Below are positions 5,334-5,419 of a DNA stretch of 64,000 nt, one piece after another. The stretch comes from Alphaproteobacteria bacterium UBA6187. Lineage in GTDB: Bacteria; Pseudomonadota; Alphaproteobacteria; Rickettsiales; UBA6187. The translations under genes and the position numbers were made by a program. Location: contig DITJ01000004.1 in NCBI GenBank assembly GCA_002422795.1, positions 31,329-95,328 of the forward strand, written 5' to 3'. Each line of letters opens with the position of its first letter. The stretch's first letter is position 1. Under the pieces are notes generated by a model, which was given only the letters and a program-made list of their open reading frames with translations, was not told where the DNA came from and ran no database searches.

Positions 5334-5419
5334 TCAGGTTTCAGGTTTCAGGTTTCAGGTTTCAGAATAAAGTGGAAGGTTTTCTTTCCTGACACCTGAT
5401 TCCTGTCACCTGACACCTG
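5334..5419. repeat. repeat-arm hairpin: (TCAGGTT)x4 facing CCTGACACCTGA-type arm
   Basis: Left arm is 5334..5365 and right arm 5388..5419. It lies 8 nt upstream of the aatA start codon. Confidence 0.8.

What the first reader, a model, noticed from the sequence alone, without database searches (positions are those of the whole stretch)
5334..5419. Repeat-arm hairpin abuts the aatA start codon in a divergent promoter region: a positional rule relative to start codons
Here the hairpin is not downstream of any gene. It sits in the divergent region between aatA (-) and the TPR-methyltransferase gene (+), with its base 8 nt from the aatA ATG.

Across the window, the distance from the hairpin base to the nearest start codon is:
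- 5 nt: exbD, bolA, iscA
- 6 nt: DMT transporter gene, proA, smpB, C-N hydrolase gene
- 8 nt: aatA
- 9 nt: hscB, hscA, rsmA

Most of these genes have no recognisable Shine-Dalgarno sequence in the interval. This tight spacing suggests the structure is part of the translation-initiation region, for example as a standby site or occluding element, or marks mature 5' ends.
Basis: seen in the sequence. Interest (0 to 1): 0.6.

Follow-up and report, generated by a model that had tools for sequence, protein, structure and literature searches.

The report
Tandem-repeat hairpins wedged between genes
The hairpin beside the aatA start codon is one of about 13 lineage-specific palindromes, each built from its own tandem 7-8-base unit, that have been inserted at gene boundaries; they sit against the upstream stop codon at least as tightly as against the next start codon, so the "start-codon rule" is mostly what remains of a once-tiny spacer.

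Summary
The window holds 13 clear and 2 degenerate intergenic hairpins whose arms are tandem 7-8-nt units, with a different unit at each locus. RNA folding gives -20 to -86 kcal/mol. The aatA copy (5329-5419) scores z = -7.4.

Eleven hairpins end 3-8 nt before a start codon with no Shine-Dalgarno (SD) motif in the interval.

Across 29 co-directional junctions in this clade:
- The hairpin begins -21 to +13 nt from the upstream stop codon (median 3).
- The distance to the start ranges from 3 to 121 nt (median 12).
- Any slack always lies on the start side.

The closest relatives lack the hairpins. L091 aatA has a 28-nt leader with an SD, and the L003 isc genes overlap. A 93%-identical relative carries a different hairpin at the same junction. 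One hairpin is inserted in frame inside tsaD. About 1.7 Mb of outgroup loci have none.

I conclude these are insertional, slippage-prone palindromic repeats, not ancestral initiation elements. They are a variable-unit relative of the GGGAATC inverted heptamer arrays of Xanthomonas. They are probably tolerated because the stem loops out and keeps stop, SD and start close together. SD motifs are enriched just 5' of the hairpins, and this is unexplained.

The parts
5329..5419 (.). Repeat-arm hairpin next to aatA. Left arm 5329-5365 (AGGTCTC followed by AGGTTTC x4), loop 5366-5385, right arm 5386-5419 (CCTGACA/CCTGATT/CCTGTCA units). There is one systematic mismatch per unit.
   Evidence: RNA fold -41.7 kcal/mol, z = -7.4; DNA fold z = -5.7.
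4123..5325 (-). aatA (aspartate transaminase). The start codon ATG is at 5325-5323, 3 nt from the hairpin, with no SD in between.
   Evidence: NCBIfam NF004769, residues 3-399 aligned to profile 5-401. Upstream sequence. Relative L091 has an SD leader in place of the hairpin.
5460..5489 (+). Sigma-70-like promoter (TTGACG, 18 nt, TATAAT) for the divergent TPR-methyltransferase gene. It lies outside the hairpin.
   Evidence: 11 of 12 matches. The block is conserved in L091.
8379..8448 (+). Hairpin with unit ATTTAAG, between the mlaC-like stop (8373) and the DMT transporter start (8453).
   Evidence: 5 nt from stop, 4 nt from start.
17366..17424 (.). Degenerate hairpin with AGTGCA-type units, beside a MITE-like element and 24 nt before a small ORF.
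   Evidence: The same unit family occurs in L003 and L006.
22438..22548 (-). Hairpin with unit TCAGAGT, between the proB stop (22555) and the proA start (22431).
   Evidence: 6 nt from stop, 6 nt from start. GAGGAG sits just 5' of it on the sense strand.
23699..23906 (.). Hairpin with GGTGATA/GGTAATA units in the divergent proB/bolA spacer. It lies 6 nt from the bolA start (23913) and 22 nt from the proB start (23676). A MITE-like element (23744-23869) sits in its loop.
   Evidence: BolA is Pfam PF01722.
27243..27318 (+). Hairpin with TTTAGGG/ATTGGG units. It overlaps the dapA stop (27246-27248) and ends 4 nt before the smpB start (27323).
35128..35199 (-). Hairpin with unit TAGTTGC, between the exbB/tolQ-like stop (35202) and the exbD/tolR-like start (35122).
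   Evidence: 2 nt from stop, 5 nt from start.
45722..45867 (-). Hairpin with octamer unit AGAATGTA/AGAGTGTA, between the comF stop (45868) and the C-N hydrolase start (45716).
   Evidence: 0 nt from stop, 5 nt from start.
49265..49360 (+). Hairpin with AGTGATA/AGTGTTA units, 4 nt after the nifS-like stop. It lies 15-18 nt before the iscS start, with GGAG in between.
50603..50646 (+). Short hairpin with unit ATTTAAG, abutting the iscS stop (50600-50602). It lies 45 nt before the iscU TTG start, with GGAG in between.
51075..51145 (+). Hairpin with unit TCAGAGT/TCAGAAT, between iscU and iscA.
   Evidence: 8 nt from stop, 6 nt from start. The junction has a 1-nt spacer in L003.
51503..51604 (+). 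Hairpin with octamer unit AAGAGTGT, starting directly after the iscA stop and ending 5 nt before the hscB start.
   Evidence: Orthologous copies occur in L006, L004 and L010. The empty site in L003 is the overlap ATGTCTAA.
52180..52319 (+). Hairpin with AAGGGAT(A) units. The hscB stop (52198-52200) lies inside its 5' arm. It ends 3 nt before the hscA start.
   Evidence: a 32/32-nt perfect arm match. L010 carries a different hairpin at this junction.
54183..54256 (+). Degenerate repeat-arm hairpin 3 nt after the hscA stop and 121 nt before the lptD start.
57582..57661 (+). Hairpin with left arm ATTTAAG-type units and right arm AATCATA x5 (homogenised separately), between surA and rsmA.
   Evidence: 4 nt from stop, 8 nt from start.

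Best explanation
The aatA hairpin is one copy of a clade-specific class of intergenic palindromes. Each arm is a tandem array of a 7-8-nt unit. These are inverted pairs of heptameric simple-sequence repeats.

Origin and dynamics:
- They are gained, lost and replaced as discrete insertions at ORF boundaries.
- Afterwards they change by replication slippage within each arm.

Position:
- In operons the 5' arm starts on or within a few nt of the upstream stop codon.
- The short distance from hairpin to start (3-8 nt) is what is left of an ancestrally tiny or overlapping stop/start spacer. It is not a designed spacing.
- Where the ancestral spacer was longer, the extra sequence, which includes the SD, lies between hairpin and start.

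Why they are tolerated (inferred):
- In the mRNA the 70-210-nt insert folds into a very stable stem that loops out. The upstream stop codon, and often an SD-like motif just 5' of the stem, then stay within about 5-15 nt of the next AUG. Termination-reinitiation or a split ribosome-binding site can still serve the downstream gene.
- The arm composition makes them fairly harmless. The 5' arm is C-poor and usually holds stop codons (0-3 reading frames). The 3' arm is G-poor, which limits start-codon and SD motifs.

Shown: anatomy, distribution, anchoring on the stop codon, gain/loss/replacement among relatives, slippage, and the lack of strand-specific G.U pairing. Inferred: folding in vivo, preservation of translational coupling, and the mechanism that generates or copies the elements.
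For: Anatomy and restriction to the clade:
- 13 clear and 2 degenerate hairpins, with locus-specific units.
- Present in every locus with HscB at least ~70% identical (L003, L004, L006, L007, L008, L010).
- No real hit in about 1.3 Mb plus 0.41 Mb of outgroup loci.

Anchoring:
- Across 29 co-directional junctions, distance to the stop has median 3 (range -21 to 13) and distance to the start has median 12 (range 3 to 121).
- 23 are closer to the stop and 5 closer to the start (p = 9e-4). In 11/11 junctions with slack, the slack is on the start side.

Insertion and turnover:
- L091 (AatA 88% identical) has a 28-nt SD leader where the window has the hairpin.
- The L003 isc junctions overlap or abut.
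- L010 (HscB 93% identical) has a GGTGATA-unit hairpin at the hscB-hscA junction, where the window has AAGGGAT units. Its arms are 81% identical to those of the window bolA hairpin, by a hand count of 30/37 positions.
- An in-frame insert of about 96 nt of the AAGGGAT family lies inside L007 tsaD, compared with L004.
- Unit families recur at non-orthologous sites across genomes.

Slippage:
- One arm is homogenised independently of the other: aatA left arm AGGTTTC x4, rsmA right arm AATCATA x5.

Composition and pairing:
- There is no RNA-strand signature. Sense and antisense folding energies and G.U counts are symmetric.
- 5' arms are 5.4% C.

SD motifs:
- Core SD lies within 22 nt 5' of the hairpin in 13/29 junctions. 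The comparisons are 2/42 hairpin-free gene ends and 9.4% of random coding 26-mers.

Precedent:
- Xanthomonas GGGAATC arrays form 70-75 inverted pairs, lie between aligned ORFs, and sit closer to the upstream ORF (28 nt against 160 nt). The G-rich strand follows the stop codon (PMC4692102).
Against: - No copying enzyme or mechanism is identified. The window has no transposase or RAYT gene and the hairpins have no target-site duplications.
- The iscA-hscB hairpin is 90% identical between the window and L006, while coding DNA is 75-87% identical. That is more conserved than neutral junk should be. It could mean host-level selection or repeated insertion of one conserved element.
- Hairpins occupy roughly 11 of about 24 tight operon junctions but only about 4 sites in roughly 10 kb of other intergenic DNA (my rough count). 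This is a strong preference that a purely neutral model does not predict.
- The divergent-spacer copies (aatA, bolA, L006 iscR, L008 hisB/hslV) abut start codons with no upstream ORF. Preservation of coupling cannot explain them, and no uORF ends at the aatA hairpin.
- The SD-like motifs 5' of the hairpin are mostly predicted to be paired in the helix base.
- All comparative data come from metagenome contigs. There is no expression data.
Confidence: 0.55

Rival explanations
1. One reading: the hairpin is a dedicated part of the translation-initiation region. It would act as a ribosome standby platform, as an occluding element that makes initiation depend on melting by the upstream ribosome, or as a replacement for the missing SD.
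For: - 11 of 13 clear hairpins end 3-8 nt from a start codon, with no SD in the interval.
- The copies in divergent spacers also abut start codons (aatA 3 nt, bolA 6 nt, L006 iscR 0 nt, L008 hisB/hslV overlapping).
- SD-like motifs are enriched just 5' of the stem. Effective SD-to-AUG spacing across the helix base is 2-8 nt in most of the 10 junctions tested.
- The aatA AUG is predicted to pair at the helix base.
- TAACTGA heptamer repeats in Beggiatoaceae likewise end about 1 nt before start codons that lack an SD (PMC4679880).
Against: - Anchoring is on the stop codon, not the start.
- Distance to the start is 10-45 nt or more, often with an SD in the spacer, in many relatives and in window iscS and iscU.
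- Orthologous genes work without any hairpin (L091 aatA with its own SD; L003 overlapping isc genes).
- Different hairpins occupy the same junction in near relatives.
- One copy sits inside a coding region.
- No G.U bias favours the sense strand.
Confidence: 0.15
2. The hairpins are RNA processing and stability elements. The long, near-perfect intercistronic stems would be RNase III sites or 3' stabilisers that split operon transcripts and set the relative amounts of each cistron. This resembles REP elements or selective RNA processing and stabilisation.
For: - Stems of 25-45 bp start 0-8 nt after stop codons.
- Six consecutive junctions of the isc-hsc operon carry one.
- The iscA-hscB hairpin is conserved at 90%.
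- REP elements and stem-loops in selective-processing operons occupy the same position (PMC4423207 and PMC8219983, listed; REP biology is from my own knowledge).
Against: - Presence or absence varies at orthologous junctions of an essential operon.
- There is no sense-strand G.U signature.
- Copies occur in divergent promoter regions and inside tsaD.
- There are no transcript data.
Confidence: 0.2
3. The function is at the DNA level. Cruciforms, G-quadruplex/i-motif structures or protein-binding arrays would affect replication, recombination or nucleoid structure.
For: - The property of a G-rich 5' arm and C-rich 3' arm is strand-symmetric, and folding energy is symmetric between strands.
- Some arms carry at least four G-tracts (smpB, hscA, L008 hslV), like the GGGNATC repeats shown to form G4 in vitro (PMC4692102).
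- MITE-like elements have inserted into hairpin loops twice, which suggests an exposed structure in DNA.
Against: - Most unit families have no G-tracts (ATTTAAG, TAGTTGC, AGAATGTA, GTTTGTA).
- A DNA-level role does not explain the strict association with ORF ends.
- There is no conserved binding motif across families.
Confidence: 0.05
4. The hairpins are transcription terminators or attenuators between genes.
For: Strong stems lie directly after stop codons. The degenerate copy after hscA precedes a conserved promoter-like block for lptD.
Against: - No U-tract follows the stems.
- None of the eight hairpins in 45-60 kb, nor the aatA hairpin, is called terminator-like. The scan only allows loops of 3-8 nt, which limits this test.
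- They sit inside essential operons whose downstream genes must be expressed.
Confidence: 0.03

Closest known systems
Inverted pairs of GGGAATC / GGGNATC heptamer tandem repeats in Xanthomonas (and GGGGA(C/T)T in Nostoc), Rehm et al. 2015, PMC4692102
   Same: - Tandem heptamer arrays often occur as two convergent arrays that can form a stem-loop (70-75 cases per genome).
- They lie mostly between co-directional ORFs and closer to the upstream ORF (28 nt) than to the downstream one (160 nt).
- The G-rich strand is on the sense strand just after, or overlapping, the stop codon, and on the antisense strand just upstream of the next ORF.
- Length and sequence vary greatly between close species, and the function is unknown.
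- Some units here (AAGGGAT, TTAGGGA) resemble GGGAATC.
   Different: - Here there is no single consensus. At least 10 unit families occur, most without G-tracts, and both 7- and 8-nt periods are used.
- Nearly all copies are hairpins rather than single arrays.
- They fill almost the whole spacer, so they also end 3-8 nt from the next start.
- The host is an uncultured alphaproteobacterium with 41% G+C.
TAACTGA heptamer direct repeats of marine Beggiatoaceae, MacGregor 2015, PMC4679880
   Same: - Heptamer arrays sit within a few nt upstream of start codons, with the commonest class ending 1 nt upstream.
- Some overlap the end of the upstream ORF.
- SD motifs are rare in those spacers.
- A translational role was proposed but not tested.
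   Different: Those are direct repeats of a single conserved heptamer, oriented relative to the downstream gene, with only one inverted case. The elements here are inverted arrays with many different units.
REP / BIME / REPIN elements of enterobacteria and pseudomonads (PMC3116915; REP biology from my own knowledge)
   Same: - They are extragenic palindromes at hundreds of copies, typically just after stop codons and inside operons.
- They form stable mRNA stem-loops.
- They are targets for insertion of other mobile elements, as the MITE-like elements in two hairpin loops are here.
   Different: - REPs have a conserved consensus of about 35 nt per family and an associated RAYT transposase.
- Here there is no family-wide consensus, the arms are internally periodic, and no RAYT was found in the 64-kb window.
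Rickettsia palindromic elements (RPE), reviewed in PMC10969869
   Same: They are palindromic repeats in Alphaproteobacteria that insert in frame into conserved protein genes as well as between genes. One hairpin here is an in-frame insert in tsaD.
   Different: RPEs are about 150-bp families with a conserved sequence that encode a conserved peptide. The elements here have tandem-unit arms and are overwhelmingly intergenic.
Looped-out hairpin between SD and AUG (phage T4 genes 38 and 25) and the termination-then-shunt arrangement of the CaMV leader. These are functional analogies recalled from my own knowledge and were not checked in the paper library.
   Same: The geometry is stop codon or SD, then a stable stem, then a few nt, then AUG. 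This would let a ribosome use a start codon that is far away in the linear sequence.
   Different: Those are single, conserved and experimentally shown devices with short stems (T4) or in a eukaryotic setting (CaMV). Here the arrangement is repeated at many junctions, is variable, and is untested.

Membership tests
Heptameric tandem-repeat inverted pairs (Xanthomonas GGGAATC type, PMC4692102) | Arms made of tandem repeats of a 7-nt unit (at least 2 units), with two arrays in convergent orientation close together | tested here: met
   TRF periods of 7 or 8 with 2-7 copies in both arms, and inverted-repeat complementarity of 78-100%.
Heptameric tandem-repeat inverted pairs (Xanthomonas GGGAATC type, PMC4692102) | Unit consensus GGGNATC, with at least four G-tracts (G-quadruplex potential) | tested here: not met
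   Only the smpB, hscA (and L008 hslV) hairpins have GGG-tract units. ATTTAAG, TAGTTGC, AGAATGTA, TCAGAGT and AGGTTTC have none.
Heptameric tandem-repeat inverted pairs (Xanthomonas GGGAATC type, PMC4692102) | Located between aligned ORFs, nearer to the upstream ORF, with the G-rich strand on the sense strand after the stop | tested here: met
   11-13 of 15 window copies lie between co-directional genes. Median distance is 3 nt to the stop and 12 nt to the start. 5' arms are 31% G and 5% C.
TAACTGA-type start-proximal heptamer direct repeats (PMC4679880) | Direct repeats of one conserved heptamer, oriented towards the downstream start codon | tested here: not met
   Units differ at each locus and the arrays are inverted pairs.
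REP / REPIN | A conserved palindromic consensus shared by the copies of a family in one genome | tested here: not met
   Neither loops nor arms share a consensus across loci. Only small unit families recur.
REP / REPIN | An associated RAYT (Y1 transposase) gene | tested here: inconclusive
   Pfam and NCBIfam scans of the window's ORFs found none. However, only 64 kb of the genome is held, plus about 15 kb of flanks that were not scanned with these libraries.
MITE | Terminal inverted repeats flanked by target-site duplications | tested here: not met
   Flank comparison at 33 hairpins gave 2 with p <= 0.05, which is the chance level.
Intrinsic terminator | A G+C-rich stem followed by a U-tract | tested here: not met
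   No hairpin was called terminator-like. The scan only allows loops of 3-8 nt. The sequences after the stems are not T-runs.
Known structured RNA family (Rfam) | A match to a curated covariance model | tested here: not met
   The only Rfam hit above the gathering score in the window is tRNA-Lys.
   Spacing to the start ranges from 3 to 121 nt. The hairpin is absent from L091 aatA and from the L003 isc junctions.
   This needs toeprinting or reporter assays.

The most novel reading that the evidence does not exclude
These hairpins may be a new kind of mobile element defined by structure rather than sequence. Such an element would have palindromes with tandem-unit arms, a small shared vocabulary of units, no target-site duplication and no transposase nearby. 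It would home to ORF boundaries, and the host would have co-opted it as a looped-out bridge. The result would be split ribosome-binding sites (SD, 70-140-nt stem, 3-8 nt, AUG), or termination-reinitiation across the stem, at nearly half of the tight operon junctions.
Probability: 0.2. Interest if true: 0.75.

Novelty: new variant of a known kind. Interest (0 to 1): 0.5.

Why it matters
If the picture holds, this lineage shows that operons can absorb 70-210-nt insertions exactly between a stop codon and the next start codon, at roughly half of its tight junctions, without losing the downstream genes.

That makes it a natural test bed for three questions:
- How far RNA folding can substitute for linear proximity in translational coupling and in SD-to-AUG spacing.
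- How heptameric repeat palindromes arise and spread. Heptamer repeats were reported as the most abundant long simple-sequence-repeat class in most bacterial genomes surveyed (Mrazek 2007, cited in PMC4679880). Their function in Xanthomonas and cyanobacteria is still unknown.
- What determines where they land.

There is also a practical consequence. These elements break assemblies: contig L002 ends inside the aatA hairpin. They also mislead gene-start and operon prediction in metagenome-assembled genomes.

Tried and rejected
- **Sense-strand RNA selection.** I compared G.U against A.C mismatches and the sense and antisense folding energies of 24 hairpins. Both are symmetric, so there is no signal.
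- **Target-site duplications.** There is none beyond chance. The CATATA repeat flanking the aatA hairpin is probably chance.
- **A uORF ending at the 5' base of the aatA hairpin,** which could give coupling in a divergent spacer. There is none.
- **An aatA promoter.** Only the opposite-strand TTGACG-18-TATAAT was found. A weak TTTACA-N16-TATAAC seen by eye is unverified.
- **A transposase or RAYT in the window.** There is none.
- **Rfam.** No family matched.
- **Terminator reading.** There is no U-tract.
- **First genome-contig scan with HscB alone.** It found nothing. The second scan, with an alignment, showed that no GTDB species representative lies closer than 59% HscB identity.
- **"Stop codons in all three frames of every 5' arm".** This is only partly true, with 0-3 frames per arm, so I dropped it as a rule.
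- **Held-out 15 kb of the same contig.** It has no hairpin, so it could not serve as a validation set. It is largely a phage/defence island.
- **Elhai et al. 2008 (cyanobacterial small dispersed repeats).** The paper could not be read because it is not held.
- **Split-SD idea.** The enrichment is real, but most of the SD-like motifs are predicted to be paired in the helix base. I therefore keep it as an unexplained association rather than a shown mechanism.
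Full report
**1. What is at the coordinates**

At 5329-5419 the plus strand reads AGGTCTC (AGGTTTC)x4 AG, then a loop of about 20 nt, then CCTGACA CCTGATT CCTGTCA CCTGACA CCTG. TRF reports a period of 7 in both arms. On the aatA sense strand the RNA folds at -41.7 kcal/mol, with z = -7.4 and 0 of 200 shuffles as stable. As DNA, z = -5.7.

The left arm is a perfect fourfold repeat. 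It differs from the complement of the right arm at one position in every unit, so each arm has been homogenised separately.

The element lies in the 187-nt divergent spacer between aatA (4123-5325, minus strand) and a TPR-methyltransferase gene (5513-6574). The only sigma-70-like promoter in the spacer serves the other gene.

**2. The family in the window**

There are thirteen clear and two degenerate hairpins of the same build. Each has its own unit:
- AGGTTTC
- ATTTAAG (three loci)
- TCAGAGT (two loci)
- GGTGATA
- TTTAGGG
- TAGTTGC
- AGAATGTA (two loci, octamer)
- AGTGTTA
- AAGGGAT(A)

Folding energies range from -20 to -86 kcal/mol. The 5' arms are 5.4% C and 31% G. The 3' arms are correspondingly G-poor. 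This polarity is the same on both strands.

No Rfam family matches. No U-tracts follow the stems. There are no target-site duplications. No transposase gene lies nearby.

**3. Is it more than chance, and how widespread is it?**

The same scan was applied to several sets of loci:
- It finds such hairpins in every locus from relatives with HscB at least ~70% identical (L003, L004, L006, L007, L008, L010).
- It finds none that is real in about 78 other alphaproteobacterial hscB loci, about 1.3 Mb. The single hit there is a coding GCC repeat.
- It finds none in 0.41 Mb of aatA-relative loci.

The organism is an uncultured alphaproteobacterium. No species representative lies closer than 59% HscB identity.

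**4. The positional claim**

None has an SD-like motif in the interval: 0/11 against 16/44 other genes. That part stands.

The list omits four copies:
- iscS, 15-18 nt from the start, with GGAG in between.
- iscU, 45 nt from the start, with GGAG in between.
- Two degenerate copies, 24 and 121 nt from the next start.

More importantly, the same hairpins begin -21 to +8 nt from the upstream stop codon.

I pooled 29 co-directional junctions from the window and its relatives:

| Measure | Distance to stop | Distance to start |
|---|---|---|
| Median | 3 nt | 12 nt |
| Range | -21 to 13 nt | 3 to 121 nt |

- The hairpin is closer to the stop in 23 junctions and closer to the start in 5 (p = 9e-4).
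- All 11 junctions with at least 20 nt of slack have the slack on the start side. An SD often sits there.
- A start distance of 9 nt or less holds for 9/12 junctions in the window but only 4/17 in relatives.

In divergent spacers the hairpins do abut a start codon: aatA 3 nt, bolA 6 nt, L006 iscR 0 nt, and L008 hisB/hslV overlapping both. One copy (L003 13645-13707) lies in a convergent spacer.

The common rule is therefore "against an ORF end", with the stop codon as the anchor inside operons.

**5. Comparative evidence that these are insertions**

- **aatA.** In L091 (AatA 88% identical) the block CGTCAATTTTTACTATTG...AATGTATATG is conserved. It is followed by a 28-nt leader with GAGGA 8 nt before the ATG. 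The window has the hairpin in place of that leader.
- **isc-hsc operon.** In L003 the iscU-iscA spacer is 1 nt, iscA and hscB overlap (ATGTCTAA), and hscB and hscA overlap. The window has 85-, 107- and 122-nt hairpin spacers at these junctions. Occupancy differs from genome to genome.
- **Replacement.** L010 (HscB 93% identical) keeps the same 3' arm at the iscA-hscB junction. At the hscB-hscA junction it has a ~70-nt hairpin of GGTGATA units where the window has 140 nt of AAGGGAT units. Its arms match those of the window's bolA hairpin at 30 of 37 positions, counted by hand.
- **Coding insertion.** L007 tsaD carries an in-frame insert of about 96 nt of the AAGGGAT family, compared with L004.
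- **Unit families.** GTTTGTA/GTTTATC, AGTGCA, AAGAGTGT and AGTTGTT-type units recur at non-orthologous sites in different genomes.
- **MITE-like elements.** They have landed in hairpin loops twice.

Against simple neutrality, the iscA-hscB hairpin is 90% identical between the window and L006, while coding DNA is 75-87% identical. By my rough count, hairpins also occupy about 11 of 24 tight junctions but only about 4 sites in roughly 10 kb of other intergenic DNA.

**6. RNA or DNA?**

Sense and antisense folds are equally stable and carry equal numbers of G.U pairs. Nothing shows selection for pairing in the transcribed strand specifically.

Perfect mirror copies of irregular unit strings point to templated copying of one arm from the other, or to insertion of a ready-made palindrome. 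The hscA hairpin, with a 32/32-nt arm match, is an example. The one-armed homogenisation in the aatA and rsmA hairpins shows later slippage in place.

**7. An unexpected association**

Core SD motifs (GGAG or GAGG) lie within 22 nt 5' of the hairpin base in 13/29 junctions. By my grouping, that is about 8 of 16 independent junction groups. The comparisons are:
- 2/42 at the 3' ends of hairpin-free genes (Fisher p = 7e-5).
- 9.4% of random coding 26-mers.
- 4/44 upstream of hairpin-free start codons.

The Glu-Glu pair near the HscB C-terminus is encoded GAGGAG in hairpin-bearing genomes and GAAGAA in the hairpin-free L003 and L008.

Across the helix base, the effective SD-to-AUG spacing would be 2-8 nt in most of the 10 junctions tested. 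However, most of these motifs are predicted to be paired with the CTCC-like end of the 3' arm. There are three possible readings, and I cannot separate them:
- A split ribosome-binding site.
- Survival of insertions only where a strong SD exists.
- Seeding of the arrays from SD-like sequence.

**8. Mechanism I commit to (confidence about 0.55)**

These are insertional, slippage-prone palindromic heptamer or octamer repeats. They accumulate at ORF boundaries. They are tolerated because the RNA stem loops out and keeps stop, SD and start codon close together.

The 3-8-nt distance to the start is the remnant of the ancestral spacer. The rivals are not mutually exclusive with this origin:
- RNase III or stability elements (0.2).
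- A dedicated initiation element (0.15).
- A DNA-level structure (0.05).
- A terminator (0.03).

**9. Comparison with what is known**

- **Closest precedent.** The GGGAATC heptamer arrays of Xanthomonas form 70-75 inverted pairs per genome. They lie between aligned ORFs, sit nearer the upstream ORF, and have the G-rich strand after the stop codon. They vary between close species and their function is unknown (PMC4692102).
- **TAACTGA repeats of Beggiatoaceae.** These show the start-proximal, SD-poor pattern (PMC4679880).
- **Resemblances only.** REP/REPIN elements and Rickettsia palindromic elements (PMC3116915, PMC10969869) share position or in-frame insertion. The defining features of REP (a consensus sequence, a RAYT gene) and of MITEs (target-site duplication) were tested and not met, or could not be completed.

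Verdict: this is a new variant of a known kind. What is new is the many unit families, the near-universal hairpin form, and the near-complete filling of operon spacers.

Noticed in passing
window 11448-11553, 29309-29414, 28698-28880; 17254-17360, 23744-23869; 16019-16182, 17776-17939; 13665-13811, 19839-19988; 12130-12254; 27811-27934; 46618-46772; 63507-63622: At least seven families of MITE-like palindromic elements of about 100-180 nt, mostly with TATAG.../ATAC... termini, litter the intergenic DNA. They are a separate repeat class from the tandem-unit hairpins.
   Followed up: partly
window 23744-23869; L010 1-56: MITE-like elements sit inside the loops of repeat-arm hairpins in two independent cases: the bolA hairpin, and the iscA-hscB hairpin of a relative with 93%-identical HscB. 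The latter matches the window 46618-46772 family at 93%. Hairpin loops appear to be insertion targets.
   Followed up: yes
L007 19192-19297 (tsaD, minus strand): A repeat-arm hairpin of the AAGGGAT family is inserted in frame in the conserved tsaD gene. It adds about 32 codons relative to the L004 ortholog, in the manner of Rickettsia palindromic elements.
   Followed up: yes
window 54283-54322: A block of about 40 nt upstream of lptD (AAACTA.C..GATGACAAGGC..GAAATGCTGTTAAAG) is conserved in four relatives, although the surrounding spacer is not. It looks like a promoter (TGACAA, about 15 nt, TGTTAAA) or a leader motif. There is no Rfam hit.
   Followed up: partly
window 52165-52176, and the orthologous sites in L003, L006, L007, L008 and L010: The Glu-Glu pair near the HscB C-terminus is encoded GAGGAG (SD-like) in genomes with a hairpin at the hscB-hscA junction. 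It is encoded GAAGAA in the two genomes without one.
   Followed up: partly
window 391-3584 and about 3745-3790; L172 12530-20585: A gene-transfer-agent or phage-like cluster (Rcc01698_C, ParB_N, Minor_tail_Z, DUF4238) lies next to a partial tRNA-like fragment. Beyond the window's left end there is a phage/defence island. None of its tight junctions carries a repeat-arm hairpin.
   Followed up: partly
window 30093-30395 and 37873-38309: Long tandem repeats lie inside genes: 120 nt x2.5 in a D-Ala-D-Ala carboxypeptidase gene, and 114 nt x3.8 in an 845-aa TMEM43-like protein gene.
   Followed up: no
window 24156-24542: A PemK/MazF-family toxin gene is wedged between bolA and the monothiol glutaredoxin gene. 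No obvious antitoxin ORF was examined.
   Followed up: no
L002 (Logan SRR5323116 contig), which ends at window 5363: An independent assembly of the same sequence breaks inside the left arm of the aatA hairpin. These repeats fragment short-read assemblies.
   Followed up: partly
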